A stretch of DNA of 64,000 nucleotides from a virus. Taxonomy: Duplodnaviria; Heunggongvirae; Uroviricota; Caudoviricetes. Within the stretch, counting starts at the first letter, position 1, and the number at the start of each line of letters is the position of its first letter. The notes beneath the pieces were generated by a model that had not been told where the DNA came from, made no database searches, and saw only the letters and a list, made by a program, of their open reading frames with translations. Made by a program: the position numbers and the translations under genes. Positions 1,453 through 40,179 of the stretch are shown here, in pieces. Location: positions 32,001 through 96,000 of the IMG/VR virus record IMGVR_UViG_3300027963_000034, one strand, 5' to 3'.

Positions 1453-1484
1453 TAAATATACGACAAATTTATTACTTTACCAAA
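1453..1484 (-). promoter_or_regulatory. Bacteroidota-type -33/-7 promoter upstream of iscU
   Basis: Minus strand TTTG-N20-TATATTTA. Confidence 0.65.
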
Positions 1485-18517: not shown

Positions 18518-18520
18518 AAC

Positions 18521-21050: not shown

Positions 21051-21051
21051 A

Positions 21052-23351: not shown

Positions 23352-23383
23352 CTAATATACCCAATTTATTTGGATTTACCAAA
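23352..23383 (-). promoter_or_regulatory. Bacteroidota-type promoter upstream of the Cas4-like nuclease/glyco block
   Basis: TTTG-N20-TATATTAG. Confidence 0.6.
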
Positions 23384-24229
23384 TAATTCTTCTATAATTG
23401 GTTGTATATGGTCTGCCCAAAGTTTTGACCCTAATTCGTTTGGATGGTTATCATTTCCAATATGATATTCTTTGTTTAAATTTATAAATTCATTTAAAGT
23501 AAATCCATTATAATAGTTTGGATTTTCTTTCATTGATTTTATTAGTCTATTATGGATAAGTGGGTGATGGGTATTATGAAAAAAACTAATGTCATCTTCT
23601 ACTTCGTTTGAAACCGCTAACTCATATCTTGGATTCCCATGTGAGTCTTTTAAATACCATTGACCATTTGATTCGTTTAAAACAGGTATATGGTTATTTA
23701 TACCATCAAATATTAAAAATTTATAACCATTTGCTTTACAAAAATTTGTAAAATTTATAATATTATGATACGTTTTTATTAAAGAAAATGTTATATTTGT
23801 ATATAATTGAGATATTTCGTATCTATTTTTATAAATCCACGAATTTAAAGGAAATTCATTATCCCATCCTTCAAACCCATCCGCAGTTATTTTACGACTA
23901 CCTTGTTTATCTAGAAATTGTAAAGGAGTAAGATGCCAATATAATGAACCATTGCTTTTTTCATCAAATGAATCCCAACAAATTAAAAATCTTAAACACT
24001 CTGATAATTGTATTACAAATAAACTATCTTTTGCTATTTCTGGATTTAATGTAGCGTAGTTTATTACATTTTGAGTTATTACTTCGTTTCCAATCCCACC
24101 TTTAGCTATATTAATTAATTCTAAATTATTATTTTCTGCTAAATATTTTGCCCAAGATGCAGTTTTTCCAATTAAATGTCCTTCGGTGAAAGAACAACCG
24201 GATGTTATTAAATATTTTGTATCAATCAT
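23366..24229 (-). CDS. SGNH-like protein (paralogue 3)
   Basis: SGCSFTEG, NIA.GG.GN, DNHPN..G. Confidence 0.65.
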   Translation of the reverse strand: MIDTKYLITSGCSFTEGHLIGKTASWAKYLAENNNLELINIAKGGIGNEVITQNVINYATLNPEIAKDSLFVIQLSECLRFLICWDSFDEKSNGSLYWHLTPLQFLDKQGSRKITADGFEGWDNEFPLNSWIYKNRYEISQLYTNITFSLIKTYHNIINFTNFCKANGYKFLIFDGINNHIPVLNESNGQWYLKDSHGNPRYELAVSNEVEDDISFFHNTHHPLIHNRLIKSMKENPNYYNGFTLNEFINLNKEYHIGNDNHPNELGSKLWADHIQPIIEELFGKSK

Positions 24230-25413
24230 AAATATTTTTTTAGGTATTCCAATTCTTTTGGTATATGTGTTTTATTAAAATCATTTCCAAAATTCATATA
24301 AGTTTTAAACATATCTTTTGAGTTTTTTGGATGATTTATATTTGTTTTTAAATATATCACAAAATTTTTAATTTCTGTTTTTAAATCATTATAATTAAAT
24401 GCTTTATCAAGTCTTGTATATAATTCTATTATATCAGTTTTTTCTTCAAAATTAGAAACATTTAACCAATACGGGTGTTCTGCAAATCCAAATCTAATTT
24501 GAGAATCCGAATCAATATATCCCATATGATACATAGATTTTCTAAAATTTGGAAAATCAAAACAATTTAATATAGAACAAGTATATTGAAATACGTGTTT
24601 AATATTTCCATATTTATTTTTGGCTTCGTTTAATAAATTCATATTATTTATGAAATTATTTGTATTAAACCCCGTTCTTACAAATTCACCAACATTACCT
24701 ATACCATCGCAAGATATTCCAAAATTTATACTTTTAAATTGAGAAAAAAATTCAAATATATCTCTATTATTAAATTTAACTAAACTGAAATTTGTATTTA
24801 AATGTATTTCTATTTTATCTTTATTGTCCAGTTTAGAAAGAAATTCATACATCTCTTTCATATATAAAGGTTCTCCACCTGCAAAATATATGTGTTCTAA
24901 ACTTTTTATATATCGTTTATCAATATCAAAATTTGTTATGTTTATTTCATTTTTATTAGAATCAATCGCGATTCCCATAAATTTTTTAAAAGCATTTTGT
25001 TCTTCAATCCAAGTTGAAGAATATTCTGATGTGCAACTTCTACATTTAAAATTACAAATATTGGAAGGTCGTAAATCTAGTCTAACAAAATCAGGATAAT
25101 TATATCCATCCTTTCTTGTTTTATTTTTGTATTTTTGAATTAGATGAGAATAATACCCATTCCACTTTGTTCTATAACTTTCAGCCCCCTCATCATCCAT
25201 TTTATAACAAACATCACAAAATTTTGGTTTATCACCATTTAACATATCCAATCGTATTTGCTTATATTCATCTGAATTAAAGGCATCCGATATTGAATCG
25301 TTTTCCAAATTTGTATTTTCTAAAAAAGTTTGTGAATAACAACAAACTTTTAATTTTTTATCTGGATAGGCATTAATATGTAAAAATGGTAATATACAAA
25401 ATGTATCTGACAT
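24226..25413 (-). CDS. Radical SAM protein with N-terminal SPASM/twitch-like domain
   Basis: CNFKCRSC (CxxxCxxC), AGGEP, NTN, S.DG; N-terminal CILPF..CC..C..C. Confidence 0.88.
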   Translation of the reverse strand: MSDTFCILPFLHINAYPDKKLKVCCYSQTFLENTNLENDSISDAFNSDEYKQIRLDMLNGDKPKFCDVCYKMDDEGAESYRTKWNGYYSHLIQKYKNKTRKDGYNYPDFVRLDLRPSNICNFKCRSCTSEYSSTWIEEQNAFKKFMGIAIDSNKNEINITNFDIDKRYIKSLEHIYFAGGEPLYMKEMYEFLSKLDNKDKIEIHLNTNFSLVKFNNRDIFEFFSQFKSINFGISCDGIGNVGEFVRTGFNTNNFINNMNLLNEAKNKYGNIKHVFQYTCSILNCFDFPNFRKSMYHMGYIDSDSQIRFGFAEHPYWLNVSNFEEKTDIIELYTRLDKAFNYNDLKTEIKNFVIYLKTNINHPKNSKDMFKTYMNFGNDFNKTHIPKELEYLKKYL

Positions 25414-27773: not shown

Positions 27774-27805
27774 TTAATATACGATTATTTTTTTAAAATA
27801 CCAAG
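27774..27805 (-). promoter_or_regulatory. Bacteroidota-type promoter upstream of the dut/clamp-loader block
   Basis: CTTG-N20-TATATTAA. Confidence 0.5.
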
Positions 27806-28539: not shown

Positions 28540-31095
28540 TTAAAAACTAAAAAACTTTTTTGCAGTTTGAGCTTCAGTTGATGCTTTTTCCCATTTTAAT
28601 GCGGTATAAAAATCATCTAACTTATTTTCTAATTCTGCTTTAAATATCATATCTCTATCAATATATTTTTCAATAAAATCCATAATCTCATTAGGGTCAT
28701 TATAATCTTTAAAAGCCAACCCTTCTAATCCTAATGGGTTATTTCTTAAATATACCCACTTAACTTTATCACCATCTCTAATTGGTTCATTCTTAAATGG
28801 ACAATTAAAGAATTTTAATAATCGGTTATATGCAATTCCGGCTTTAACATGGGCAGGTGTTCCTTTCTCAAATAACCCAACAGGCTTACCTCTTTCCCAT
28901 TTACCATTATCATACTTACTTAATTCTTTGATTGCTCCACTCTTTGCTATTTTGTTTACAGGCAAAGTAATCATACTCTTTTTGAACTCTAATAATTTTG
29001 TATCAACATATTCATTATCTTTACCCATAAGAATATCTTTCAACATACCACTCATATAATCTTGGAATGCTTTGGGAAATGATGAACGAACTACATCTAA
29101 ACCTTTAACATCTAACTTATCACATTTGATGCCATTCTTTAATACCATCCATTGTGCATATCTTTTCTTTGCTACCCAAAATCCCGCTTTACTGATATAT
29201 TCCTTTTTGATTTCAAATCTATGTTTTTCTTTTGGTATAAAAAAGAATCTTTCAGCAAGTATATCATAAAATTTATTTAAAAAAGATTGAGTTTCTTCTG
29301 CTATTATATTAACTTCCTGTGCCATTCTTTCTTCATCAAATTCTTTATATTCTGGGTATCTATGCTTTACCAATGGTTCTGCCATCATATAAATTGAATC
29401 AGTGTCAATATACACATTGTAATCTTCTTTTGTATTTAATTCTTTCCAATATTTTATATTAGCCATTTCAGCCGTTTTTTTAATAACCGTCTGACCGGTA
29501 ATAGTAACTGCTTCGGCGTTATCTATATCATAAAAACGAAATGCCGGTAAACCTAACACACCATACATTGAGTTCAATAGAATTTTTTGTACCAATTGTC
29601 TTTTTGCGTAAAAATCATATTTTTCAGTATCACCTGCTTCTCCGTATTTTTTTTCTAACTTACGGAATTCAACTCTTTGTTTAAACCATGTATCTAAAAT
29701 ATCTGCAATCAATCCGGGTTTGTCTTGTGTATAAAGAACTCCGTTTGCAGCTACACCCAAATTACTATCTTTAATAACTTCTTTTAGTTCCTGAGTCGTA
29801 TATTCGTATTTATCACCATCCTTGCCAATTAACTTATAAGTTGTATCTAATCCTTTGATGTTTGCCTCTGCGTCCCAATTTTCAATCTTACCAACCTTTG
29901 TTTCAGGTGAGATGTTTAGAGTCATAATAATTGATGGATATAGTGATGTTAAATCCAAATCATAAATCCAATCATACTTTCCAACAATCGGTTCTTTTAC
30001 ATATGCACCGATAAACTTCTCCTGGTCGTTATCTCTCAATGCTTGCATTCTTTCTTTTCTATCCTTTGGTTTATTTGGGGCTACTAATCCTTTTTTCTTG
30101 AGATATGCTAAACAAGCTCCTTCTAAATATTTTGAAGAGTATATATAATCCTCGTATGGTACAAATCCGGCGTGACAAATCGCTCTACACAAATCTACGA
30201 ATTGAAGTTTTTCATCCATTGCTACAACTAAGTCTACATCGACAATATTATATTCAATAAACTTTTCTAAGTCATTTTCAAACAAATCATCCAAACTTCC
30301 TTCATACTCAATCTTACCTCTACCCAATTCTTTTGTTGCGATGTGGTTCAATGTATATGAACTTTCTAAACCATAATTATAGTTTTTATATAAGTTGATA
30401 TAATCTAAAATAGATACACCACCAAAACTCCATTTATTTCTATAAGGTGAATAAAAGGTTTGACCTATTGGAGATAATCTTTTTGCATGACCTTCGCCAC
30501 ATACATTTTTGATACGATTGTAAAGATATGGGATATCAAAGAAATCTATATTCCATCCTGTAAGAATAGACGGGTTAATTTCTTCGTAATAGTTAAGAAA
30601 TGCAAGTAATAAATTTTTCTCGTTATCGTAAATGTGAACAGCAACTTCTCTCCCATCTTTACTAAATGTTTTTCCATTATTTTTAATTTTTTTAGTTTTA
30701 TCTAAAACAAATACATCAAATAATTTTGTAGCCCCATCGTGAGATGCGATGGCTGTTATTTCATTTTCTGCTTTTTCGGTACTTGGTAGTCCTGATATCA
30801 TTTCTACCTCAATATCAAAAGTCATTACTCTATGACCTGTTGATGGTAAATCCGAATCATACATATCAACTAATACTCTCGTTGTTTCAGGAACATCAGA
30901 TTCAAATAAATCTTCTGCGTCATCTTTTTCCCATTTACTAATTCTAGTTAAACGGTCACCATTCATTGAAAGGTGTTGACCCGATTGGTCTTTCTTATAC
31001 GCATACTTTCGGTATGGTAATGTAAAATATCCCTTCGTGTCGTCCCATAAATGAATTAAATTCTTCTGCCTCTCGTAAAATATATTTTGATACAT
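28540..31095 (-). CDS. Family B DNA polymerase (gp43-like)
   Basis: FDIE (ExoI), GWN..FD, DLTSLYPS, KILLNSMYG, YIDTDS, KKRY. Confidence 0.98.
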   Translation of the reverse strand: MYQNIFYERQKNLIHLWDDTKGYFTLPYRKYAYKKDQSGQHLSMNGDRLTRISKWEKDDAEDLFESDVPETTRVLVDMYDSDLPSTGHRVMTFDIEVEMISGLPSTEKAENEITAIASHDGATKLFDVFVLDKTKKIKNNGKTFSKDGREVAVHIYDNEKNLLLAFLNYYEEINPSILTGWNIDFFDIPYLYNRIKNVCGEGHAKRLSPIGQTFYSPYRNKWSFGGVSILDYINLYKNYNYGLESSYTLNHIATKELGRGKIEYEGSLDDLFENDLEKFIEYNIVDVDLVVAMDEKLQFVDLCRAICHAGFVPYEDYIYSSKYLEGACLAYLKKKGLVAPNKPKDRKERMQALRDNDQEKFIGAYVKEPIVGKYDWIYDLDLTSLYPSIIMTLNISPETKVGKIENWDAEANIKGLDTTYKLIGKDGDKYEYTTQELKEVIKDSNLGVAANGVLYTQDKPGLIADILDTWFKQRVEFRKLEKKYGEAGDTEKYDFYAKRQLVQKILLNSMYGVLGLPAFRFYDIDNAEAVTITGQTVIKKTAEMANIKYWKELNTKEDYNVYIDTDSIYMMAEPLVKHRYPEYKEFDEERMAQEVNIIAEETQSFLNKFYDILAERFFFIPKEKHRFEIKKEYISKAGFWVAKKRYAQWMVLKNGIKCDKLDVKGLDVVRSSFPKAFQDYMSGMLKDILMGKDNEYVDTKLLEFKKSMITLPVNKIAKSGAIKELSKYDNGKWERGKPVGLFEKGTPAHVKAGIAYNRLLKFFNCPFKNEPIRDGDKVKWVYLRNNPLGLEGLAFKDYNDPNEIMDFIEKYIDRDMIFKAELENKLDDFYTALKWEKASTEAQTAKKFFSF

Positions 31096-31103
31096 ACATT
31101 GTT

Positions 31104-32675
31104 TTATGGTTTATAAAATATAAAGATTGGTTCGTATTTATACGATTGCCCTTCTATCTTCATACTATTCTTTGCTTTTGATAAATCCATCCCCGTCATT
31201 GGACTCATTGTCATTCTTAATTTTCCTTTATATTCACATCCTAATTCAGTTAGGATATCGATACTATCTTGCTCCAAAGTAAAAAATTTATCAGGTCCTA
31301 CTTTTATATCAGCAATATTCCAGCAAATGTATCTATCATTTTTAAGATATTCAAATGCGGTTGTTAGAGTAGGTCTTAAAAAGCCATCTCTCCAACTTTC
31401 ATATGAATTAAATTTCTTAAAAGATTGCGTTTCATCATCCGAATATCTTTCTCTATCAAAATATGGTGGTGAAGTAAATACAAAATCTAATTTACCTTTA
31501 TACTTTTGGAATCTTTCATCTAAATGAATAATTTCCGAACCTGTTGTAAAAATTTCATAACTATTTGCATGTCCCCAAAATGGGTTTGATGCTCCAGGTA
31601 CTTTATTATTAAAAAATTCTGCAAGATATTCGTATCTAGTTTTACCAATTTCAGGTATTTGATTTTCTGTATTAGGGTCATTTCCTATGTAATGTATATT
31701 CCTATCATCGACACTTAATGCACCTAAAATTCTCCCACCCCATCCAGCCGATGGGTCGTAAATATTAATCTGCTTTTGGTCTTTAATATGATTTGTAAAT
31801 CTTTGATAAAGATATTTTGCAGTTAATGGTGGAAAATTTACTGCTGCTTGCGTTCCCATACCAATACGGAATGCCGCAGTAGCTTCAGGAAATATAGTTT
31901 GTCCTAATGGGTAGATTTTAATTTGAATTGGTTGTTTTGTAATCTCATATAAATTATCAATATTTTCACCCCAATCTGCGGTTTTAAGTGACGATATATT
32001 TTCATATTTTAATATTCCCGCTTTATAAAGGTCTTTAACTTCTTGCGCGGTTATTGGTGGTGAAGGAACTTTACTATCAGCCTGTGATAAACAAAATGAA
32101 TGTCCTTCCAAATTATCACCTTCTACCCACTTTTCAATCCACTCTTTACCACTTTGTATATGTGAATTATGAAATTCAGGATTACCCAAATGTAATGTTT
32201 TAGAAAAACGATACATACCATCTTGCCTAGTTAACCTATTCATTTGTTTGATAAATTCGGGAAGATACGCATCATTCGAAAACACATCGTAAATAGATGG
32301 TTTTGGTTTATCGTAAGTAGAACCACCGATTCCTGTTTTATACATTGCAGGAAAGAATTGATTTACAGGAGTAGCAAATTTATTAAAGTTAAAGATGACT
32401 TCATTTCCTTCGTCATCTTTTTCTTCAAATTCATTTACCTTATAAGTTTGCAGTCTAGAAAATTGTTCAATCATTTCACTTTCATCAACCCCAATTCTTG
32501 GAGGTGCTCCGGTTTCATTCCATTTTCTAACTGCTAATTCACGAAAGAATGCCACCCACTCTCCAAACTTTGGAAATGGCATTTTAAGAACATCCTCGTA
32601 TTTTAAGTTTACTTCTGGAGAGTAAATCCAATCGTTCTTTTCGTAAAAATATTTTTTAGGATAATTAAAACTCAT
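31104..32675 (-). CDS. SAM-dependent DNA amino-methyltransferase-like protein 1
   Basis: Motif I YDPSAGWGGR, motif IV FTSPPYF, NIAD, EPIF. Confidence 0.8.
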   Translation of the reverse strand: MSFNYPKKYFYEKNDWIYSPEVNLKYEDVLKMPFPKFGEWVAFFRELAVRKWNETGAPPRIGVDESEMIEQFSRLQTYKVNEFEEKDDEGNEVIFNFNKFATPVNQFFPAMYKTGIGGSTYDKPKPSIYDVFSNDAYLPEFIKQMNRLTRQDGMYRFSKTLHLGNPEFHNSHIQSGKEWIEKWVEGDNLEGHSFCLSQADSKVPSPPITAQEVKDLYKAGILKYENISSLKTADWGENIDNLYEITKQPIQIKIYPLGQTIFPEATAAFRIGMGTQAAVNFPPLTAKYLYQRFTNHIKDQKQINIYDPSAGWGGRILGALSVDDRNIHYIGNDPNTENQIPEIGKTRYEYLAEFFNNKVPGASNPFWGHANSYEIFTTGSEIIHLDERFQKYKGKLDFVFTSPPYFDRERYSDDETQSFKKFNSYESWRDGFLRPTLTTAFEYLKNDRYICWNIADIKVGPDKFFTLEQDSIDILTELGCEYKGKLRMTMSPMTGMDLSKAKNSMKIEGQSYKYEPIFIFYKP

Positions 32676-33394
32676 TATGCAGTTAATTGTACTTCAACTA
32701 AATAATATTTTGCAGTAAAGTCATCAATTTTAAATTCAACGTGGGCTAGGCCAGATGTTGAAACTTTCAATACAACCGATGTTGCTTCTTTATTTGCTGT
32801 TAAAATTTCTTTTAAGTATTTTGCTGAAAAAGAAATTGGTTTAATTTCGTTTGTAAAACTCTTATCAACTGAAAATACAATTCTATTTGAGTTTACATTT
32901 GAATAACCTAATACAATTTTTAATTCACCATTCTCGGTTAAGACAGTAAATGTATCAACTTCGCTTAATGCGTTTTTAGCTTTGATGAACTTTTCAATAA
33001 ACTTACCATCAAATCCAATGTTTACATCGAAATCAGGAAGTTTTTTCAAATCCGGAACCGAAGGGATTACTGCTAAATCCGCTAATTGAAATTGTAATTT
33101 AGTGTCATCACTTTTAATTACTAAATTAACCGATTTGCCATCAATTTGTTGAGTTTCTAATTCAATATCATCACCGGCTACCGATAATAACTTTGATAAC
33201 GCAGATGTGGTATACACACCCAATTCTGGAGATGTAAATGTGAAATTATCTAATTCAATTTCACCTAAAACTGTCTTATCATCAGAGATAAAACGAGTTA
33301 TTAATTTGTTATCACCTGCTTTCCAAGCAACTGATTCTACTAATCCTGCCAAACTATACTTTTGGATGAATCGTGTAACTTTTGTTTTGTTCAT
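32675..33394 (-). CDS. Sliding clamp (gp45/PCNA-like)
   Basis: 239 aa beta-rich protein, ISFSAKYLKEIL, G...V.F......YYL terminus; position upstream of polB. Confidence 0.8.
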   Translation of the reverse strand: MNKTKVTRFIQKYSLAGLVESVAWKAGDNKLITRFISDDKTVLGEIELDNFTFTSPELGVYTTSALSKLLSVAGDDIELETQQIDGKSVNLVIKSDDTKLQFQLADLAVIPSVPDLKKLPDFDVNIGFDGKFIEKFIKAKNALSEVDTFTVLTENGELKIVLGYSNVNSNRIVFSVDKSFTNEIKPISFSAKYLKEILTANKEATSVVLKVSTSGLAHVEFKIDDFTAKYYLVEVQLTA

Positions 33395-33422
33395 ATTTTT
33401 TTGTTTTAAATTTTATGTTTGT

Positions 33423-33454
33423 TAAATATACTACTTTTTTTTTATAATACCAAA
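33423..33454 (-). promoter_or_regulatory. Bacteroidota-type promoter upstream of clamp/MTase/polB
   Basis: TTTG-N20-TATATTTA. Confidence 0.65.
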
Positions 33455-34672
33455 TTATATTTTTTTCCAAATCCAAATGGGTTCACCAAATGCATTATTT
33501 TTATTGAGTTCTGTTTTTTCTTTAAGTTCTTCTGCAAAATATTCAGATTTAGCATTTCCTGCACCGCCGGAATTAAACCTTTTTGTCATTTCCATTCCAA
33601 TACAACCCATATATTCTAATCCCTCTGATTTAATAAAGTCATTCATAGCATTTACAATATCAACATACCCCTTATCTGGTGCTGAAAATACATCTGCAAT
33701 ATTAACGGCTAATAACCCACCCTTCTTTAAGGTAGGGATTATTTTTTTAATTGTTTTATGTAGGAAATTAGTATTCCAGTCATCTATCTTTTTATAGCGT
33801 AAATAACTTTGAGTATCATGTGTGGAATACTTTTCAGTATTGAAGTATGGAGGTGAAGTGAAGATTGTATCAAAAAAGTTTTCATATTTGGAATAATCCA
33901 CATCTTCTGCCGGTAACTTTATTAGTTCCACAGTTTTAGGATTTTCAAAAAATGTTTTGTGTTTCTGATAAAATTCTATTTGGTTTTCATAATTTGGGTG
34001 ATTATCTAAATTAGGGTCAATGCCCACATAATGTTTACCCGTTTCACTTGCAAAGAACCCACATAACCTATCACCCCAACCTGCGGAAAAATCTAATACA
34101 TTCTCACTCTGAAATCTGTCATAAAATGCTTTAGCGATTACAGGTTTAAATTGGGATGCTACATACTTTCTTAATGTAGTAGCCATCTTTAGTGTTTCCT
34201 TATTTACATCAGTTAGGACTTGTTCCAATGTGAAGAATGCCCGAACTATGGTTTTTATACCATTAACTGTCTGCCATGTCTTCCAACCTGATGGTGTTCT
34301 TGACCAATCTACCTTCCATCGATTTTCTATGTGGAATGGATTAGATGCGTTATTACCAACATTCGTTCTTTTAAAATAGTAATTACTACTATCAAATGTA
34401 AGTGGATATGTAGATTCCCTTTCATTACGCGGAAACCATTCTCCTTCCACTAAAATATCCGGCCACCAAGTACCCTTTAACTTTTTATATGCATCAATAG
34501 TTTCTTGTTCTGTAATAATAGGAATAGGTGGTGGATAAGTATGTAATACTTCTGATAATGTTTCTACTATCTCTTCCTTTTCAAATGTATTTAGTATATG
34601 TTTCCACTCCTCCTTATCAATATTGATATAGGGGGTCATTCCATAAAACTTTTTGAAATATTCTTTTATCAT
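33455..34672 (-). CDS. DNA amino-methyltransferase-like protein 2
   Basis: SQFKP..AK, LDFSAGWGDR, GIDP, TSPPYF, NIAD, EPIW; start moved to ATG 34672. Confidence 0.8.
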   Translation of the reverse strand: MIKEYFKKFYGMTPYINIDKEEWKHILNTFEKEEIVETLSEVLHTYPPPIPIITEQETIDAYKKLKGTWWPDILVEGEWFPRNERESTYPLTFDSSNYYFKRTNVGNNASNPFHIENRWKVDWSRTPSGWKTWQTVNGIKTIVRAFFTLEQVLTDVNKETLKMATTLRKYVASQFKPVIAKAFYDRFQSENVLDFSAGWGDRLCGFFASETGKHYVGIDPNLDNHPNYENQIEFYQKHKTFFENPKTVELIKLPAEDVDYSKYENFFDTIFTSPPYFNTEKYSTHDTQSYLRYKKIDDWNTNFLHKTIKKIIPTLKKGGLLAVNIADVFSAPDKGYVDIVNAMNDFIKSEGLEYMGCIGMEMTKRFNSGGAGNAKSEYFAEELKEKTELNKNNAFGEPIWIWKKI

Positions 34673-34676
34673 TAAA

Positions 34677-35906
34677 TTATATTTTTCTCCAAATCCAAAC
34701 CGGTTCACAAAATGTTTTATCTGCAGCTTCTCTTGCTTTTTCTAAAGCCTCTTCGGTATATCTTCCTTCATCACCTTCTATTATTGAGGCAGCTCCTGCA
34801 CTACCAGGTCTTTTGGCCATTTCCATACCCAAACATCCTTCATATTCAGCGCCTAATGTTGAAATAAAATCATTCATTGGGTTACATATTTCTTTATATC
34901 CCTTACCATCTCCTTGTGAACTAGCGTATACATCTGCTATATTAATGGCTAGATATCCTCCTTTCTTGATTGTTGGCCAAACATTTGAAATTGCTTTATG
35001 TAAAAATAATTTATTCCAATCATCTATATTTTTATATCTTACCCAACTTTGAGTATCATCATATGAGTATCGTTCTACATTAAAATATGGAGGTGAACTG
35101 AATACAATATCAAAATGCTCATTATACATTGATAAATCGGCATCTTCCGCCGGTGATTCTATAAAATCAGCTTTCTTTTCAGTTTCAAAAAATCCATTAT
35201 GTTTTGTATAAAACTCAGCCTGTTGTTTATAAATTGGATGATTTTCTTTTCTAGGGTCTATCCCAACATAGTGTTTGCCCTTTTCACTGGCAAAAAACCC
35301 ACACATCCTATCTCCCCAACCTGCCGATATGTCTAATACATTTTCACATTCTAAATAATCATATAAAGCTTTCGCAACATTAGGTTTAAATTGAGAACAT
35401 ATATACTTTCTCAAACTTAAACATACTCTCAAAGCTGCTTTATCTATTTTATCAAATTTAAGAGTATATAATCCACCCATTAAAGTTGTCATGAATTCTT
35501 TACTTTCCCAAGTTCTTTTAGGACCTGGAGAAACTGTCCCATCAACACTCCAACGATTTGCTTGTTGAAAAAAATTAGATGCTTCATTTCCAGTATTTAA
35601 TCTTCTAACATATTGTTGTTTACCTCTAAATGATAGAGGATAATTACTTTCTGATGCTTTTCTTGGAAACCATTCACCTTCGGTAAATAATTCATGCCAT
35701 CTCGTTCCTTTTAATTTAAGATATTCTTTTCTGGCTTCATCCTCGGTTATTTCAGCATATGGTAAAGAATATTCCATACAAACATCAGATAGTGAATCTT
35801 TTACATCTTCCCTATTAAATGTTTCTTTTATATATGACCACTCACTCTCATTTATATGAAGGTATGGTGTCATATTTTTAAATTTATCAAAATATTCTAA
35901 ATACAT
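34677..35906 (-). CDS. DNA amino-methyltransferase-like protein 3 (tandem paralogue of protein 2)
   Basis: SQFKP..AK, LDISAGWGDR, GIDP, SSPPYF, NIAD, EPVW. Confidence 0.8.
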   Translation of the reverse strand: MYLEYFDKFKNMTPYLHINESEWSYIKETFNREDVKDSLSDVCMEYSLPYAEITEDEARKEYLKLKGTRWHELFTEGEWFPRKASESNYPLSFRGKQQYVRRLNTGNEASNFFQQANRWSVDGTVSPGPKRTWESKEFMTTLMGGLYTLKFDKIDKAALRVCLSLRKYICSQFKPNVAKALYDYLECENVLDISAGWGDRMCGFFASEKGKHYVGIDPRKENHPIYKQQAEFYTKHNGFFETEKKADFIESPAEDADLSMYNEHFDIVFSSPPYFNVERYSYDDTQSWVRYKNIDDWNKLFLHKAISNVWPTIKKGGYLAINIADVYASSQGDGKGYKEICNPMNDFISTLGAEYEGCLGMEMAKRPGSAGAASIIEGDEGRYTEEALEKAREAADKTFCEPVWIWRKI

Positions 35907-36418
35907 ACTGTCTCAATATTTTTATCAGCAACCAATCTTAATCTAAAAACTATTCCAGGAATAACTCCATCTTTTTTACTTGTCCAAAATATATCAGAAT
36001 CTTTTACAAATCCATTTCTATAATAGAAATTAACTGCTTTATCATTATACTTCCTAACCGTCAAAAACAAATTTTCTGCATGTTGTGATTTACAATATTG
36101 TATAAAATCATTTAAAACTATTTTAGCGTTTCCATTGTGTTGGTCTATATTCGCAATTTGATGCAATATATAATCTCCTTTCTTTTTATAAGTAGTAGCG
36201 TTTCTACTCATTTTACCATTACTACCATATCTACCAAAGGTAACCACAACACCATCTTGTAGTATTAATCCACCTTTTTCAATATATTTTTCCAGCTTAA
36301 AACTTTGTTTATACAAGTGTGGAAATATTTCTGGATACAAATCAATAATTGTAGAGGCTTGATTTAATGCCTCTATCATTTCAGTTGTACCTTTTTCTGC
36401 TTTTATAAAATTAAGCAT
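35897..36418 (-). CDS. GNAT-family acyltransferase
   Basis: LHQIA....NGNA and LTVR..N.KA..FY.RNGF motifs; start moved to ATG 36418. Confidence 0.8.
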   Translation of the reverse strand: MLNFIKAEKGTTEMIEALNQASTIIDLYPEIFPHLYKQSFKLEKYIEKGGLILQDGVVVTFGRYGSNGKMSRNATTYKKKGDYILHQIANIDQHNGNAKIVLNDFIQYCKSQHAENLFLTVRKYNDKAVNFYYRNGFVKDSDIFWTSKKDGVIPGIVFRLRLVADKNIETVCI

Positions 36419-37868
36419 ATTCAAAAAATTTATTTAAGTTTAATTTGTCTTTATACAAATATAAGGAATTTAATTGAGATTTCAAAATATCTTTTCTAGC
36501 TTCCATCATATCACCAGTTCTTGCACCTTTTGCAAAAAATACTTTTGGTCTATATAATAATTCATCGGAAATCTCACCTTTGAATGCTGCTCTTAATAAT
36601 GGTTTCATATGACCATTTTCTTTCTGATATAAAGGTGGAATGTTTAAAGTATATTCTACAAATGGTCTCCAACTATATGGTGTACGAACCTCAACAGTCC
36701 CACCCCACATGATAGATTGATTTGTAGTTAAGAAATTTGTTTTATGAACATCTTCTACTAATTTTCTTCTAGCTTTATCATAATCTTCCGGTCTCCAATG
36801 GAACGCTTGAATATGTCCGTAACTTCCCCAAATTTCATCGGATAAATCACCGCTAAATACAACTTTGAATCCTAATTCATTTATTTTTTTACCCAATGCA
36901 ATTTGAGCTATAGCAGAACCTACATTTTGCCAACGAGATTGTTCAATAACATAAAGAGTTTCATCAATCGAATCTAATACATCTTGTTCGGTTAGTATAA
37001 TTTCATGCAATTTTACACCGAATTCTTTTGCAGCAATTCTGGCGTATTTAATGTCGTCGTTCTTTGTATCACCATCTCCCATTGAAACCACAAATGCTTC
37101 AATATTAGGGTTTATTTTTGAAAGTATATAAGTTGTTATCACCGAATCAATACCCCCACTTAAAATGGTGCAAATTGGGACATCAGATATCATTTTAACT
37201 TTAACCGCTTCCTCTAATAATTTTCTTATATTCTTAACAATAGTGTCTCTATCATCATTTATAATTTCATTTGGAAGTTTATAATAAGTTTTAATTGAAT
37301 GTTCTAATGTTTTATAATTGTATTCTATATAAGTTCCAGGATAAACTGCTTTAACTTGTTTTTCATACAATTCCGATATTGGTAATCCTTTCTTTTCCGA
37401 ACAAAACACCAATTTACCAGTATTATCAATTGCATACCATAATGGTAATTCTCCAACATAATCTCTAACAACAAATACTTTATTAATCTTACTATCAACT
37501 ATACAAAATGAAAACATACCATCCAATAGTTCAAATGATTTAGTTCCCAATTCACAATACGCATTTAATATAATTTCCGTATCTGATTTTGTTATAAATT
37601 TTGTTTTTAGTGATTTTTTTAATTCAGTTGTTTCGGTACTATCCCAAAGTTCACCATTATAAACAATACAAACGGTTTTATCTTCGTTCCACATTGGTTG
37701 ATTTGCAGCCGAAGATAAGTCCTGTATTGATAATCTATTATGTCCAACAAAGACACTATCTATTTCATCTACAATAGAAGCATCTCTACCTCTATGAATT
37801 ATTTTATTTAATTGGGTATGGGTTTGCTCAAAAGAAGTAAACCAATTACCACCTATTATTCCACACAT
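36411..37868 (-). CDS. Asparagine synthetase B-like glutamine amidotransferase/ATP-dependent amide ligase
   Basis: Ntn Cys2 (MCGI), HRG.D, RLSI.D, NGE, SDTE; SGGIDS PP-loop; variant SGDLSDE; EVR.P. Confidence 0.9.
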   Translation of the reverse strand: MCGIIGGNWFTSFEQTHTQLNKIIHRGRDASIVDEIDSVFVGHNRLSIQDLSSAANQPMWNEDKTVCIVYNGELWDSTETTELKKSLKTKFITKSDTEIILNAYCELGTKSFELLDGMFSFCIVDSKINKVFVVRDYVGELPLWYAIDNTGKLVFCSEKKGLPISELYEKQVKAVYPGTYIEYNYKTLEHSIKTYYKLPNEIINDDRDTIVKNIRKLLEEAVKVKMISDVPICTILSGGIDSVITTYILSKINPNIEAFVVSMGDGDTKNDDIKYARIAAKEFGVKLHEIILTEQDVLDSIDETLYVIEQSRWQNVGSAIAQIALGKKINELGFKVVFSGDLSDEIWGSYGHIQAFHWRPEDYDKARRKLVEDVHKTNFLTTNQSIMWGGTVEVRTPYSWRPFVEYTLNIPPLYQKENGHMKPLLRAAFKGEISDELLYRPKVFFAKGARTGDMMEARKDILKSQLNSLYLYKDKLNLNKFFEYA

Positions 37869-37872
37869 ATAA

Positions 37873-37904
37873 CTAATTTACGAAAAATAATTGGATTTAC
37901 CAAC
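37873..37904 (-). promoter_or_regulatory. Bacteroidota-type promoter of the asnB-like operon
   Basis: GTTG-N20-TAAATTAG, 4 nt before the ATG. Confidence 0.55.
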
Positions 37905-38167: not shown

Positions 38168-38336
38168 TTTCTTTTTGTTTTATATTTTTATTTTCTTTTA
38201 TATGTTTTGGTTCATAAGGACAATGACGGCACTTATTACCACAACAATAACCTCTTGCCATATGATACTCTGGTGTAAATACCACTTTACCATTTTCCAA
38301 ATAGTATAATGTTTCATCTTTATTATTTAACTTCAC
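38145..38336 (-). CDS. Small Cys-rich protein (DUF5522-like); start uncertain
   Basis: YY.ENG.VVFT..YH..RGYCCGNKCRHCPY. Confidence 0.7.
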   Translation of the reverse strand: MKLNNKDETLYYLENGKVVFTPEYHMARGYCCGNKCRHCPYEPKHIKENKNIKQKENGNSQKV

Positions 38337-40179
38337 ACGCACCTCCAGCACAAGCTACTTCTCCTGATAAATCGGTGTTATCTTCAAGTTCAATAACTTT
38401 ACTTAAGTCAACATCATTTAATGTTTTCATTAGTTCATCATACTTTTCTTTTGTACAATCTTCAAATGGTGCTTGAATGTAAGTTCCACCGTCGTAAGGT
38501 AATACCGAAAGTCCGTTGTAATATTCTTTATTTTCCCACATCCACGCGCCAACTGCATCCCATTCATGTTCTCTAATAGAAATAGTTGCAGATACATTAT
38601 GAGAGTTATTTCCAGTTCTATGACCTGGTTTAATCCATTCACCATGTACTCTTTTAACTCTTTCCAATAATTGGATAGGTGATTCGGTTCTAAAAATTGC
38701 GTTATCTGGTGCTTTTTGTGGAATACCAATTACTGCCGTATCATGTGGTCTAAAATATTCATCTTCTACTAATTCTGGATGATTTAATAATAAGTGAGAA
38801 TATATTGATTCATTTTTACCAACTCTAACTCTTCTAATATAAAAATCATTATGCCAAGCGTGAATACCACTACTAGTCCCCAATGTTAAAGATGTAGTTC
38901 CAGCTGGTTTAACTGTCGTAGTTCTTGCGGAATGGTTAATTCCCATTATATCCGCTAATCTTTTATTTTCTTCTTTAACTACCTTTGCTGCATCTTTCAT
39001 ATTTAATTTCAATACTGCGCCGCTTCCGATGCCTGTCATAGATACACCAATAAGTGCATCCTTTTCAGTTGTTCTTTGCCAGATTGGACGAAGGTAATGG
39101 AAATCGGTATAACCTGCTTGTAATGTTCCGATGAATGATGCTGCTTTAACTCTTGCATTCAAATCATCCTGGTCAACTACATCACTTACATTCACTTCAC
39201 ATAAGTTACAAAATTGGAAAGGTCTTAATGCAATCTCACAACAAGGATTAGTTCCCCAATCTTTATCATTTGATAAATAGATACCAGGTTCACCTGCACC
39301 ACTTGCTTCAATTCGTTTCCAAAGGTCTAAAAAATATGTTTTTGTAATTTTATGTCTCATCAAAACTGCTGAATTATTTGCTCTACCTCTTTGTGGATTT
39401 GTTTCCCACCATGCACCACTCTTACAACTAATCATTTGTTCGTCATTTGCAGAGAACAATGAAATTAATGCAGCTCTACGGATACCACCTGCTAATACTG
39501 CATCTGCAATATGACAAATGATATCATGCACTTCAATCGGTTTTAATTTATCACCGTCTTTGTGTGAATCAAATATACCTTCAATCTTAATCAAGCATTC
39601 TTTTAATGGTTGAGGTCCTGGTGCTTTACCACCTGATGTAATCAATCTTGCACCCTTTGCTCTAATATCTCTAAAATCAAATTGAGGTTTGCTCCCGCCA
39701 AAGAAATACGCTTTAATCAATACCGAAACTGCATCAGCCCATCCTTCGATAGAATCTCCAATAAGGAATCTTCTTGTTTTATCTGGATTTGGTTTTCTAA
39801 TTTCAGGAAGTGCATCAACGTGATGTTTTTGTACTGAATAACCAACACCTGTTCCGCCTAAAAGTAAGAACATGATTTCAGAGAATACTCTCCAATCATC
39901 GGCAGGTGCAAATGCACAATTGTAAATTCTATTTGGACTAATTTCAATTGGTTTACCTGCAAACTGCATTGAACGCATTGATGGTAATACCTTTTTATCA
40001 TATACAAATTTATAATTCTCTCTAATTTCTTCTTCTAATTGTGGGTACTTTTTAATATGCATATCCATATTACGGGTAACCAACTCTTCCCATGTTTCTC
40101 TTCTTTTTAATTCCGGCCTGAATTTCGCGTACTTCATATAGACCGTAATGTCAGATAAAATTCTTTGTGAAATGTCCAT
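38323..40179 (-). CDS. nrdJ: Class II (adenosylcobalamin-dependent) ribonucleotide reductase
   Basis: KYA...RRETW.E, YNC, TNPCCEI, FCNL, TVKPAGT, C-terminal ACAGGACE; no small subunit nearby. Confidence 0.9.
   Translation of the reverse strand: MDISQRILSDITVYMKYAKFRPELKRRETWEELVTRNMDMHIKKYPQLEEEIRENYKFVYDKKVLPSMRSMQFAGKPIEISPNRIYNCAFAPADDWRVFSEIMFLLLGGTGVGYSVQKHHVDALPEIRKPNPDKTRRFLIGDSIEGWADAVSVLIKAYFFGGSKPQFDFRDIRAKGARLITSGGKAPGPQPLKECLIKIEGIFDSHKDGDKLKPIEVHDIICHIADAVLAGGIRRAALISLFSANDEQMISCKSGAWWETNPQRGRANNSAVLMRHKITKTYFLDLWKRIEASGAGEPGIYLSNDKDWGTNPCCEIALRPFQFCNLCEVNVSDVVDQDDLNARVKAASFIGTLQAGYTDFHYLRPIWQRTTEKDALIGVSMTGIGSGAVLKLNMKDAAKVVKEENKRLADIMGINHSARTTTVKPAGTTSLTLGTSSGIHAWHNDFYIRRVRVGKNESIYSHLLLNHPELVEDEYFRPHDTAVIGIPQKAPDNAIFRTESPIQLLERVKRVHGEWIKPGHRTGNNSHNVSATISIREHEWDAVGAWMWENKEYYNGLSVLPYDGGTYIQAPFEDCTKEKYDELMKTLNDVDLSKVIELEDNTDLSGEVACAGGACEVK

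What the first reader, a model, noticed from the sequence alone, without database searches (positions are those of the whole stretch)
28540..37904. Candidate replication-coupled DNA hypermodification operon: AsnB-like amidotransferase + GNAT + three SPPY methyltransferase-like genes inside the replisome cluster
Seen in sequence: one promoter (37873-37904) precedes asnB-like, GNAT, MTase-like 3 and MTase-like 2, which overlap or abut. A second promoter precedes clamp, MTase-like 1 and polB. The amidotransferase keeps Cys2 and SGGxDS but has SGDLSDE where AsnB typically has SGEG(S/A)DE. Established: SPPY is the catalytic motif of N4mC/N6mA DNA methyltransferases; AsnB-family enzymes amidate carboxylates via an acyl-adenylate; phage Mu Mom is a GNAT-fold enzyme that modifies adenine N6. 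Inference: a SAM-fold enzyme installs a group on an exocyclic amine (methyl, or a carboxy-bearing group such as carboxymethyl or aminocarboxypropyl), which the AsnB-like enzyme amidates and/or the GNAT acylates, giving an anti-restriction base. Plain asparagine synthesis makes little sense between thioredoxin and the clamp.
Basis: partly seen in the sequence, partly recalled or inferred. Interest (0 to 1): 0.9.

Follow-up and report, generated by a model that had tools for sequence, protein, structure and literature searches.

The report
Candidate phage DNA hypermodification gene cassette
A large uncultured lake phage carries, inside its DNA-replication operon, an asparagine-synthetase-like amidotransferase, a small acetyltransferase and three related methyltransferase-like enzymes that most likely build an undescribed amide-bearing decoration on the phage's DNA bases. 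No chemical proof exists.

Summary
On the minus strand lie Trx, an AsnB-like gene, a GNAT, MT3, MT2, the clamp, MT1 and PolB, overlapping or abutting. All three MTs carry SAGWG[DG]R followed by SPPY. A recurring promoter-like motif precedes the AsnB-like gene and the clamp gene.

New evidence for a DNA-linked role:
- The AsnB-like gene is followed directly by the GNAT in 71 of 71 related contigs, and MT3 lies downstream in 61 of 63.
- The AsnB-like protein lacks residues that true asparagine synthetases conserve (E348D, D384N, R387T, TTIR loop).
- Its closest homologue in a cultured phage sits in a CmoX/CmoA carboxymethyl-cytosine cassette.
- The AsnB-like protein, and the GNAT in marine relatives, end in the same KFF tail as PolB. 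This suggests docking on the sliding clamp.
- Sister phages hold other tailoring sets at the same slot (PLP enzyme, 2-hydroxyacid dehydrogenase, TS-like enzyme, dioxygenase), each next to an MT paralogue.

Evidence against: the MTs also occur without the AsnB-like gene and GNAT, and no CmoA was found in five relatives searched, three of them complete. The GNAT resembles RimI, not Mom. The chemistry is unknown.

Best reading (about 0.5): SPPY transferases install a carboxyl-bearing, probably amino-acid-like, group on DNA bases. The AsnB-like enzyme amidates it and the GNAT acetylates its amine. This scan noted sister cassettes earlier on other genomes; the AsnB+GNAT version and the clamp tails are new here.

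The parts
37875..37903 (-). Promoter-like motif TTGGTA-N17-TAAATT directly upstream of the AsnB-like start codon
   Evidence: the motif occurs 10 times, all on the minus strand, against 2.1 expected (0 of 100 shuffles reach 10). The sequence was read.
36411..37868 (-). AsnB-family glutamine amidotransferase (485 aa). The glutaminase and PP-loop parts are intact and the acceptor pocket is altered.
   Evidence: Cys2, N75-G76-E77, SGGIDS and K449 are kept. E348 is D, G349 is L, D384 is N, R387 is T, and TTIR reads QNVG. It scores 284.6 on TIGR01536 (cut-off 267.1) and 283 on the AsnB equivalog NF006949 (cut-off 499).
36411..36446 (-). C-terminal tail KLNLNKFFEYA of the AsnB-like protein, a predicted sliding-clamp docking peptide
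   Evidence: KF[FW] is kept in 30 of 30 distinct orthologue tails. Among 77 window ORFs only PolB and the AsnB-like protein end in KFF. E. coli AsnB has no such tail.
35897..36424 (-). Small GNAT N-acetyltransferase (175 aa, RimI/NAT/PaiA-like), found only in this phage clade
   Evidence: The model has pLDDT 92. The best match is 9mto (Z 16.6, rmsd 2.2, 135 residues aligned). There are 58 homologues, all from this phage clade.
34677..35906 (-). MT3, an SPPY amino-methyltransferase-fold protein (409 aa) with a helical N-terminal domain
   Evidence: The model has pLDDT 94. Invariant or near-invariant residues include D192, G196, W197, G198, D199, R200, D217 and S271-P-P-Y-F.
33455..34708 (-). 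MT2, a paralogue of MT3 (51% identity). It is present in some close relatives and absent in others.
   Evidence: In one search an X7 contig joins 33455 to 34677, which removes MT2 exactly.
33425..33453 (-). Second copy of the promoter-like motif, upstream of the clamp gene
32675..33394 (-). Sliding clamp (gp45/PCNA-like, 239 aa)
   Evidence: PCNA_C E 3.4e-4; phrog_12062. Its position beside PolB and the clamp-loader genes is shown.
31104..32675 (-). MT1, a longer SPPY paralogue (523 aa; 30-32% identical to MT2 and MT3 over the catalytic domain)
   Evidence: Its orthologues flank tailoring cassettes in G008 and L149.
28540..31095 (-). Family B replicative DNA polymerase, ending in AQTAKKFFSF

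Best explanation
This is the AsnB+GNAT version of a swappable DNA base-hypermodification module carried by a large clade of uncultured aquatic phages with T4-like replication genes.

Proposed mechanism, with the status of each step:
1. Inferred: one or more of the SPPY SAM-fold transferases (MT1-3) place a carboxyl-bearing group on an exocyclic amine of a DNA base. The most likely group is amino-acid-like, such as the 3-amino-3-carboxypropyl group of SAM. The alternative is carboxymethyl from host-made Cx-SAM.
2. Inferred from family chemistry and from the Cmo precedent: the AsnB-like enzyme adenylates that carboxylate and converts it to a carboxamide, using ammonia from glutamine.
3. Inferred: the RimI-like GNAT acetylates the free amine, which gives a neutral, bulky adduct.
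4. Suggested by sequence only: the AsnB-like enzyme, and in marine relatives the GNAT, are brought to newly made DNA through a PolB-like C-terminal KFF tail that docks on the phage sliding clamp.

The likely purpose is protection of phage DNA from host nucleases, or telling phage DNA from host DNA.

Shown here: gene content, motifs, synteny, altered active-site residues, shared tails and alternative cassettes. Not shown: any substrate, any product, or binding to the clamp.
For: Linkage:
- The GNAT follows the AsnB-like gene directly in 71 of 71 contigs. MT3 lies downstream in 61 of 63, and within 55 nt in 49 of them.
- The larger gaps hold an inserted HNH endonuclease.
- The block AsnB-like/GNAT/MT3 keeps together in three different flanking arrangements.

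Not a plain asparagine synthetase:
- E348 is D, D384 is N, R387 is T and the TTIR loop is lost, while the glutaminase residues, the PP-loop and K449 are kept.
- PMC6748925 names Glu-364, Asp-367, Asp-400, Arg-403 and Lys-466 (AsnB E348, D351, D384, R387, K449) as conserved site residues.
- The protein fails the AsnB equivalog cut-off.

Precedent and kinship:
- CmoY, an AsnB homologue, ligates an amine to 5-carboxymethyl-cytosine in DNA. A glutaminase-bearing ligase cluster is predicted to amidate it (PMC12783734).
- The closest cultured-phage homologue is Streptomyces phage TurkishDelight gp124 (30.5% identity, E 7e-47). It lies between a C5-MTase and a CmoA-like gene, next to ParB-like genes.
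- The AsnB-like gene of Achromobacter phage Motura sits between QueC and a DpdA-type transglycosylase.
- The D384N change is shared by five of the six phage AsnB-likes aligned, all except Motura's; in TurkishDelight the neighbouring genes are a Cmo-type cassette.

Clamp tails:
- PolB ends in ..KKFFSF and the AsnB-like protein in ..LNKFFEYA. KF[FW] is kept in 30 of 30 distinct AsnB-like tails.
- Marine GNATs end in EKFFQF, as marine PolB ends in EKFFSF.
- Only PolB and the AsnB-like protein, among 77 window ORFs, end in KFF.

Alternative cassettes at the same slot or beside MT paralogues:
- AsnB', 2-hydroxyacid dehydrogenase, PLP enzyme and a 756-aa protein (L080).
- PLP enzyme and a 600-aa protein (L091).
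- MazG, TS-like enzyme, AsnB'' and PLP enzyme (L116).
- MT1 orthologue, TS-like enzyme, AsnB'', PLP enzyme and HD protein, 80 kb from the replisome genes (G008).
- MTA/SAH-nucleosidase-like protein, MT1, GNAT and an Asp/Asn-hydroxylase-like protein (L149).
All of these enzymes act on amino-acid-like groups.

The MT family:
- It was seen only in viruses.
- It is fused in some proteins to beta-class DNA MTase domains, HTH domains and LAGLIDADG domains.
- MT2 (70-72% identity) and MT3 (58-69%) are more conserved than PolB (46-53%) and the clamp (42-49%).

Expression: contigs of a lake RNA library match MT1, the clamp and the GNAT/AsnB-like genes at 100% identity. This is weak evidence, because DNA carry-over is possible.
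Against: - MT3 and MT2 occur in many marine relatives with no AsnB-like gene or GNAT within 10 kb. Three such contigs, 55-74% complete, have no AsnB homologue at all. The MTs therefore do not need the cassette and may be ordinary methylases.
- No CmoA (TIGR00740) was found in five relatives searched, three of them complete, and no TS homologue in three of the five complete or near-complete relatives searched. No enzyme that makes a carboxyl handle has been identified.
- Fold searches put MT3 closest to the tRNA m2G enzymes TrmN, Trm11 and Trm14 (Z 16.2, rmsd 2.6-3.0, 175-180 residues aligned). This is only marginally above generic methyltransferases at Z about 15.5, so a DNA substrate is not shown.
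- The GNAT looks like an ordinary acetyl-CoA enzyme and not like Mom.
- The AsnB-like protein passes the broad TIGR01536 cut-off and keeps the acidic D/D/E cluster, so asparagine synthesis is not excluded.
- The freshwater GNAT of this window has no KFF tail.
- Clamp binding is inferred from sequence alone.
Confidence: 0.5

Rival explanations
1. The genes have unrelated functions that happen to share an operon. The three MTs are ordinary orphan N4-cytosine or N6-adenine DNA methyltransferases used against restriction. The AsnB-like enzyme is an auxiliary metabolic gene that makes asparagine, which is in high demand for the proteome of a 30% GC phage. The GNAT acetylates some protein or polyamine.
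For: - The MTs occur without the AsnB-like gene and GNAT in marine relatives.
- SPPY is the classic N4-cytosine methylase motif, and PF01555 is just passed by MT1 and MT2.
- The AsnB-like protein passes TIGR01536 and aligns end to end with E. coli AsnB at E 6e-48.
- The GNAT resembles RimI and PaiA.
- Window GC is about 30%.
Against: - The GNAT is adjacent to the AsnB-like gene in 71 of 71 contigs, and the linkage to MT3 is near-constant across rearranged flanks.
- D384, R387 and the TTIR loop, conserved in true asparagine synthetases, are lost.
- The conserved PolB-like C-terminal tail has no role in a metabolic enzyme.
- The nearest cultured homologue is in a DNA-modification cassette.
- The same slot holds other tailoring enzymes in sister phages.
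Confidence: 0.2
2. The AsnB-like enzyme and the GNAT do tailor phage DNA or its precursors, but the handle is not made by the SPPY MTs. It would be a C5-pyrimidine, deazapurine or sugar substituent made by other genes. Candidates are the 15-kb glycosyltransferase island at about 7158-22434 or the radical SAM gene at 24226-25413. The MTs would methylate DNA independently.
For: - In sister phages AsnB paralogues travel with a TS-like enzyme.
- In Motura the AsnB-like gene lies with 7-deazaguanine genes.
- In Synechococcus phage S-SCSM1 it lies inside a glycosyltransferase cluster.
- The window holds a GT4 glycosyltransferase and a radical SAM/SPASM gene nearby.
Against: - No TS-like gene was found in the complete close relatives G001 and G002.
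- The AsnB-like gene and GNAT are about 14 kb from the glycan island but directly coupled to MT3.
- No uronic-acid or amino-sugar genes were seen among the ORFs scanned. The island itself was not fully scanned.
Confidence: 0.15
3. The MT family acts on RNA or protein, for example tRNA or rRNA m2G/m6A, or glutamine methylation of release factors. The module would then reprogram translation and not modify DNA.
For: - The best structural matches of MT3 are TrmN, Trm11, Trm14, METTL5 and PrmC.
- JGI names some members RsmD-like.
- The nearest named Atlas clusters are of the TRM11 family, with scores near 0.8, which is only a lead.
Against: - These Z scores are barely above those of generic methyltransferases.
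- The family was seen only in viruses and lies in replication operons next to the clamp and PolB across the clade.
- Some members are fused to beta-class DNA methylase and HTH domains.
- There is no THUMP or other RNA-binding domain; the N-terminal domain is helical.
Confidence: 0.1

Closest known systems
CmoA/CmoX/CmoY pathway of Synechococcus phage S-B43 (5-carboxymethylcytosine and its glycine amide; Yang et al., Nat Commun 2025, PMC12783734), including its uncharacterised cluster of glutaminase-bearing ligases
   Same: - An AsnB-family ATP-dependent enzyme is encoded next to methyltransferase-fold genes in a phage.
- The proposed logic is the same: a SAM-family transferase installs a carboxyl handle on a DNA base and the AsnB-like enzyme turns it into an amide.
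- The closest cultured homologue of the window's protein (TurkishDelight gp124) lies in such a cassette, between a C5-MTase and a CmoA-like gene.
   Different: - No CmoA was found in five relatives searched, three of them complete.
- The transferases are SPPY amino-methyltransferase-type proteins, not SPPC C5-methyltransferases. The authors state that they found no N6/N4 carboxymethyltransferase candidates.
- A GNAT is added.
- The genes sit inside the replisome operon, and the AsnB-like protein carries a PolB-like tail.
Asparagine synthetase B (E. coli AsnB, PDB 1CT9; human ASNS, 6GQ3)
   Same: Two-domain architecture, the Cys nucleophile, the glutaminase residues, the SGGxDS PP-loop and K449. 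The alignment runs end to end at E 6e-48.
   Different: E348 is D, G349 is L, D384 is N, R387 is T and the TTIR loop is replaced. The C-terminal region is replaced by a short KFF tail. The score is below the AsnB equivalog cut-off.
Thymidine hypermodification pathways of phages M6 and ViI (Lee et al., PMC5889632, PMC8989533)
   Same: Multi-enzyme tailoring after replication of an appendage on DNA bases. Sister cassettes of this clade use PLP enzymes and a TS-like enzyme, as those pathways do.
   Different: The window has no dUMP hydroxymethylase, 5-HMUDK kinase or aGPT-Pplase. The amidotransferase and GNAT have no counterpart there.
Phage Mu Mom (GNAT-fold, glycyl-tRNA-dependent N6-carbamoylmethyl-adenine; PMC13219725)
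   Same: A GNAT-fold enzyme in a phage DNA-modification setting. Mom's end product is also an amide-bearing N-linked adduct.
   Different: The window's GNAT matches RimI, Ard1, Naa and PaiA best, and Mom does not appear among the top 50 rows of either fold search. Mom works alone, without an amidotransferase.
Diphthamide and wybutosine chemistry (SAM-derived 3-amino-3-carboxypropyl transfer by Dph2 or TYW2; amidation by the PP-loop enzyme Dph6). Cited from general knowledge, not tested here.
   Same: It offers a chemical logic for an appendage that has both a carboxylate, which is amidated by an ATP-pyrophosphatase-type enzyme, and an amine. TYW2 shows that a methyltransferase fold can transfer this group.
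   Different: Those systems act on protein or tRNA. No sequence relationship to them was shown here.

Membership tests
Asparagine synthetase B (true AsnB/ASNS) | N-terminal Cys nucleophile and glutaminase residues (Arg, Asn-Gly-Glu, Asp) | tested here: met
   Cys2, R31, N75-G76-E77 and D99 are kept (alignments A1 and A4).
Asparagine synthetase B (true AsnB/ASNS) | PP-loop SGGxDS and catalytic Lys-449 | tested here: met
   SGGIDS is present, and K aligns with K449 (reported as K450 in A4).
Asparagine synthetase B (true AsnB/ASNS) | Conserved aspartate/aspartyl-AMP pocket: E348, D351, E352, D384, R387 and the T322-T323-R325 loop | tested here: not met
   D351 and E352 are kept. E348 is D, D384 is N, R387 is T and TTIR reads QNVG. 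The roles of these residues are taken from PMC6748925.
Asparagine synthetase B (true AsnB/ASNS) | Curated model cut-offs | tested here: inconclusive
   TIGR01536 scores 284.6 against a cut-off of 267.1 (pass). NF006949, the AsnB equivalog, scores 282.7 against 499 (fail).
Asparagine synthetase B (true AsnB/ASNS) | Makes asparagine from aspartate | not testable with these tools
   This needs an enzyme assay or complementation of an asnA asnB mutant.
Cmo-type carboxymethyl-cytosine system (CmoA/CmoX/CmoY) | [quoted passage not shown] | tested here: not met
   No TIGR00740 match was found in five related records, three of them 100% complete. The ORFs scanned in the window showed none, but the window was not scanned in full.
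Cmo-type carboxymethyl-cytosine system (CmoA/CmoX/CmoY) | C5-cytosine methyltransferase homologue with an SPPC motif and Arg-350 | tested here: not met
   The adjacent transferases carry SPPY and match PF01555 and Eco57I-type models, not PF00145.
Cmo-type carboxymethyl-cytosine system (CmoA/CmoX/CmoY) | AsnB-family AMP-forming ligase or amidotransferase encoded beside the transferase | tested here: met
   The AsnB-like gene is one gene away from MT3. Its nearest cultured homologue, TurkishDelight gp124, lies between a C5-MTase and a CmoA-like gene.
N4-cytosine/N6-adenine DNA amino-methyltransferases | SAM-binding motif I and catalytic motif IV (S/D/N)PP(Y/F) | tested here: met
   DxSAGWG(D/G)R and SPPYF are present in all three paralogues and near-invariant across 89 family members.
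N4-cytosine/N6-adenine DNA amino-methyltransferases | Beta-class motif order (IV before I), as in Pfam PF01555 | tested here: not met
   Motif I precedes motif IV by about 80 residues, a gamma-like order. Only the motif IV half of PF01555 matches, at 27-28 bits against a cut-off of 26.7.
N4-cytosine/N6-adenine DNA amino-methyltransferases | DNA is the substrate and methyl is the group transferred | not testable with these tools
   Fold searches give tRNA m2G enzymes at Z 16.2 and generic methyltransferases at Z about 15.5, which does not discriminate.
GNAT acetyltransferase superfamily | GNAT fold with the beta4-alpha3 and beta5-alpha4 core | tested here: met
   PF00583 scores 25.9 against 20.7. 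The model has pLDDT 92, and the best match is 9mto at Z 16.6, rmsd 2.2, 135 residues aligned.
Mom-type tRNA-dependent DNA-modifying GNAT | Specific similarity to Mom (fold and catalytic R111/S124 context) | tested here: inconclusive
   Mom is not among the 50 rows listed by Foldseek or VIA-align, which are led by RimI, Ard1, Naa and PaiA. Whether the library holds the Mom structure was not checked.
T4-type clamp-binding C-terminal peptide | Extreme C-terminal hydrophobic motif shared with the replicative polymerase | tested here: met
   PolB ends in ..KKFFSF and the AsnB-like protein in ..LNKFFEYA. The motif is conserved in 30 of 30 tails. Marine GNATs end in EKFFQF, like marine PolB EKFFSF.
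T4-type clamp-binding C-terminal peptide | Physical binding to the sliding clamp | not testable with these tools
   No tool for complex prediction or binding assay was available.

The most novel reading that the evidence does not exclude
An abundant clade of aquatic phages uses SPPY amino-methyltransferase-fold enzymes to attach an amino-acid-like group from SAM (3-amino-3-carboxypropyl), or a carboxymethyl group from Cx-SAM, to exocyclic amines of DNA bases. This would be N-linked, not C5-linked. Clamp-tethered tailoring enzymes then neutralise the group: here amidation by the AsnB-like enzyme and N-acetylation by the GNAT, and in sister phages deamination, reduction or hydroxylation. This would be a new class of replication-coupled, cassette-diversified DNA hypermodification.
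Probability: 0.3. Interest if true: 0.9.

Novelty: new variant of a known kind. Interest (0 to 1): 0.72.

Why it matters
If the reading is right, four things follow.
- Phage DNA chemistry would extend from C5-pyrimidine and 7-deazapurine handles to N-linked, amino-acid-like adducts made by amino-methyltransferase-fold enzymes. The authors of the Cmo paper looked for this class and did not find it.
- Tailoring enzymes would be shown to ride the sliding clamp.
- It would explain why a virus-only methyltransferase family is more conserved than the polymerase in abundant lake and ocean phages.
- It would supply new enzymes for putting functional groups on DNA.

Because the slot holds interchangeable cassettes, it also offers a natural experiment on how phages diversify their DNA chemistry under pressure from host nucleases.

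Tried and rejected
- Megablast of the 9.4-kb region against 50,697 phage records gave no match. There is therefore no close cultured relative to look up.
- No whole genome is held for the window. I searched related IMG/VR records instead.
- CmoA was sought in five relatives and not found. Thymidylate-synthase-like genes were absent from G001, G002 and G011.
- Foldseek of MT3 against the PDB gave only generic class I methyltransferases with TM about 0.3. VIA-align could not separate RNA m2G enzymes from O-methyltransferases. I could not search the N-terminal domain on its own because no fold jobs remained.
- A phmmer search of MT3 against PDB sequences gave nothing.
- The unknown 543-, 600- and 756-aa proteins of the sister cassettes have no Pfam or PHROG match (no NCBIfam family match either for the 600- and 756-aa ones), the 756- and 600-aa ones do not resemble each other, and none resembles MT1. 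The one tried in the ESM Atlas, the 543-aa protein, had no usable hit.
- The feature search of the ESM Atlas with MT3 gave only scores near 0.8, which are leads at best.
- All 24 sequencing runs that hold the region are kept as assembled contigs. No raw long reads were available to look for base-calling or kinetic signs of modification. The laid contigs cannot show transcript ends.
- The generic sigma-70 promoter scan and the terminator scan were not above chance.
- I considered the MT C-terminal ends (EPxWIWxK) as clamp tails and rejected the idea. In the model they form the last beta strand of the fold.
- The 'glutathione synthase' name of a Satyrvirus protein that matches MT3 structurally could not be checked, because that sequence was not retrievable.

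Full report
**What is in the window**

The window is about 30% GC and almost every gene lies on the minus strand. The region is the replication module of a phage with T4-like replication genes. Read in the direction of transcription it holds:
- gp32-like protein, UvsX/RecA, FEN, GroES;
- DnaB-like helicase, ribonucleotide reductase, thioredoxin;
- AsnB-like amidotransferase (36411-37868), GNAT (35897-36424), MT3 (34677-35906), MT2 (33455-34708);
- sliding clamp (32675-33394), MT1 (31104-32675), family B polymerase (28540-31095);
- dUTPase, clamp-loader subunits, a radical SAM/SPASM protein, a PD-(D/E)XK nuclease and glycosyltransferases.

No cultured phage is close at the DNA level. The best PolB match is Microcystis phage Mel-JY01 at 49% identity. 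IMG/VR holds many relatives, some on contigs of 200-274 kb rated complete. The runs that hold the sequence are freshwater lake metagenomes.

The translations show Cys2, SGGIDS and SGDLSDE in the AsnB-like protein. All three MTs carry DxSAGWG(D/G)R followed about 80 residues later by SPPYF. The genes overlap or abut.

A generic promoter scan is not above chance. The specific motif TTGGTA-N16-18-TAWWWT, however, occurs ten times, always on the coding strand, against 2.1 expected. It sits directly upstream of the AsnB-like gene and of the clamp gene.

**The gene set is a conserved unit**

- I mapped the window's proteins onto 160 related loci. Among contigs that carry this type of AsnB-like gene, 71 of 71 have the GNAT immediately downstream.
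- MT3 lies downstream in 61 of 63 evaluable contigs, and within 55 nt in 49 of them. Where the gap is 1.7-3.7 kb, it holds an HNH endonuclease in the one contig examined (L050), which looks like a mobile insertion.
- The block AsnB-like/GNAT/MT3 stays together in three different flanking arrangements.
- MT2 is optional: a contig from another lake deletes it exactly, joining 33455 to 34677.
- MT2 (70-72% identity) and MT3 (58-69%) are more conserved across the clade than PolB (46-53%), the clamp (42-49%) or the helicase (43%) over full length.

**The AsnB-like enzyme**

It aligns end to end with E. coli AsnB (E 6e-48) and keeps the glutaminase residues, the PP-loop and K449. It therefore very probably hydrolyses glutamine, adenylates a carboxylate and makes a carboxamide.

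The whole clade has changed several residues that PMC6748925 describes as conserved in the synthetase site. E348 is D, G349 is L, D384 is N, R387 is T, and the TTIR loop is replaced. The protein passes the broad TIGR01536 cut-off but falls far short of the AsnB equivalog cut-off.

AsnB homologues are already known in phage DNA chemistry:
- CmoY ligates glycine to 5-carboxymethyl-cytosine in DNA. A second ligase cluster with a glutaminase domain is predicted to amidate it (PMC12783734).
- The best cultured-phage match of the window's protein is Streptomyces phage TurkishDelight gp124. It lies between a C5-methyltransferase and a CmoA-like gene, next to ParB-like genes.
- In Achromobacter phage Motura an AsnB-like gene sits between QueC and a DpdA-type transglycosylase.
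- The D384N change is shared by five of the six phage AsnB-likes I aligned; Motura's is the exception.
- A counter-example exists: the AsnB-like gene of Synechococcus phage S-SCSM1 lies in a glycosyltransferase cluster.

**A shared C-terminal tail**

- PolB of this clade ends in ..(K/E)KFFxF.
- The AsnB-like protein has a short C-terminal extension, absent from E. coli AsnB, that ends in ..LNKFFEYA. KF[FW] is kept in all 30 distinct orthologue tails while the neighbouring residues vary.
- In the marine relatives the GNAT ends in EKFFQF, almost the same as their PolB tail EKFFSF.
- In the window only PolB and the AsnB-like protein, among 77 ORFs, end in KFF. The looser motif [KRQEDN]F[FW] occurs in 1.3% of 10-residue windows.
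- In T4-family phages the polymerase docks on the clamp through its extreme C-terminus (established knowledge). The simplest reading is that these tailoring enzymes are recruited to the clamp and so to DNA.
- This is inference from sequence. The freshwater GNAT of this window lacks the tail.

**The GNAT**

It is restricted to this phage clade: 58 homologues, all at 48% identity or more. Its model (pLDDT 92) matches RimI, Ard1/Naa N-terminal acetyltransferases and PaiA best (Z 16.6-15). Mom does not appear in the top 50 rows. It therefore looks like an acetyl-CoA enzyme that acts on a primary amine, typically an alpha-amine.

**The MT family**

- The MT3 model is very confident (pLDDT 94). It has a helical N-terminal domain and a class I SAM fold.
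- The best PDB matches are the (D/N)PPY-type m2G tRNA enzymes TrmN, Trm11 and Trm14, then METTL5 and PrmC. They score only marginally above generic methyltransferases, so the substrate cannot be read from the fold.
- The family is large: 4,511 representatives at E 1e-3 or better. In the structure libraries it appears only in viruses, including Pithovirus-like giant viruses and a salmon gill poxvirus.
- Some members are fused to beta-class DNA methylase, HTH or LAGLIDADG domains. This favours DNA as the substrate.

**Alternative cassettes in sister phages**

Between thioredoxin and MT3, or next to an MT1 orthologue, other clade members carry different tailoring sets:
- L080: AsnB' (42% identity), a 2-hydroxyacid dehydrogenase, a fold-II PLP enzyme and a 756-aa unknown protein.
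- L091: a PLP enzyme and a 600-aa unknown protein.
- L116: MazG, a TS-like enzyme, AsnB'' and a PLP enzyme.
- G008: an MT1 orthologue, a TS-like enzyme, AsnB'', a PLP enzyme and an HD protein. This set lies 80 kb from the polymerase.
- L149: an MTA/SAH-nucleosidase-like protein, MT1, a GNAT and an Asp/Asn-beta-hydroxylase-like dioxygenase.

MT paralogues are thus repeatedly coupled to enzymes that act on amino-acid-like groups: amine acetylation, PLP chemistry, keto/hydroxy-acid reduction, beta-hydroxylation and carboxylate amidation. Earlier notes of this scan described some of these sister cassettes on other genomes. I treated those notes as leads and re-derived the same gene sets from my own loci.

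**Interpretation**

The most economical model has three steps:
1. A SAM-fold SPPY transferase puts a carboxyl-bearing group on an exocyclic amine of a DNA base.
2. The AsnB-like enzyme amidates the carboxylate.
3. The GNAT acetylates an amine.

An appendage with both an amine and a carboxylate explains why the AsnB-like gene and the GNAT always travel together, and why the sister cassettes use PLP and 2-hydroxyacid enzymes. The 3-amino-3-carboxypropyl group of SAM fits this description. Carboxymethyl from host Cx-SAM is the alternative, but it gives the GNAT no amine to act on. The chemistry is entirely inferred.

**What weakens the model**

- The MTs are core genes that occur without the cassette.
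- No enzyme that makes a carboxyl handle has been identified.
- The MT substrate is not established.
- The AsnB-like protein could still make asparagine.
- An RNA library contains 100%-identical contigs over MT1, the clamp and the GNAT/AsnB-like genes. This shows at most that the region is transcribed.

**Verdict**

This is best classed as a new variant of phage DNA hypermodification systems. It works most like the Cmo carboxyl-handle pathway, but it fails that family's defining features (no CmoA, no C5-type CmoX). My confidence in the DNA-hypermodification reading is about 0.5, and about 0.3 in the specific N-linked, amino-acid-like, clamp-coupled version.

Noticed in passing
window 33455-34677: MT2 is present in some close relatives and absent in others. 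A contig from another lake metagenome (X7) joins 33455 directly to 34677 and so removes MT2 exactly. IMG/VR relatives L001, L003 and L004 also lack it.
   Followed up: partly
window 1455-1483, 23354-23382, 27776-27804, 33425-33453, 37875-37903 and five more: The promoter-like motif TTGGTA-N16-18-TAWWWT occurs 10 times, all on the coding strand, against 2.1 expected by chance. At least five copies lie directly upstream of start codons. It is probably an early or middle promoter class of this phage.
   Followed up: partly
window 23366-25413: A radical SAM protein with a SPASM-like N-terminal region (395 aa) and an unknown 287-aa protein sit between the clamp-loader genes and a PD-(D/E)XK nuclease. 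They could be another nucleic-acid-modifying pair.
   Followed up: no
L149:3180-9607: A marine relative carries an MTA/SAH-nucleosidase-like protein, an MT1 orthologue, a GNAT (35% identity), an Asp/Asn-beta-hydroxylase-like dioxygenase, a 608-aa unknown protein and an HD protein. All lie directly upstream of MT3 and MT2, with no AsnB-like gene.
   Followed up: partly
L165:5752-11233 (G008): An MT1 orthologue (42% identity), a TS-like enzyme, AsnB'', a PLP-like enzyme and an HD protein form a block about 80 kb from the polB-clamp-MT3 locus of the same contig.
   Followed up: partly
L050:12602-14140: A 512-aa HNH endonuclease is inserted between the GNAT and MT3 in marine relatives. LAGLIDADG endonucleases are fused to other members of the MT family (P0252, P0262).
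   Followed up: partly
BFVD hits to model m3aac4af4070c: Full-length structural relatives of MT3 occur in giant eukaryotic viruses (Pithovirus-like LCPAC viruses) and in salmon gill poxvirus. A 699-aa Satyrvirus protein is named 'glutathione synthase'; if that name is right it would be a fusion with an ATP-grasp ligase. I could not check this.
   Followed up: no
L169:5395-8699 (Achromobacter phage Motura): An AsnB-like gene lies between QueC and a DpdA-type transglycosylase in a 7-deazaguanine cluster. This suggests that a free-standing amidotransferase makes the 7-amido-7-deazaguanine form.
   Followed up: no
L016 and similar loci compared with the window: Conservation is mosaic. The AsnB-like protein is 89% identical, while the GNAT is 48%, PolB 60% and the clamp 60% in the same contig. 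This suggests recombination or exchange of single cassette genes within the clade.
   Followed up: no
window 38323-40179 compared with L080:7749-9530: The ribonucleotide reductase next to the cassette differs between close relatives. The window has a 618-aa protein with weak class II-like matches, and L080 has a 593-aa protein with a strong Ribonuc_red_lgC match.
   Followed up: no
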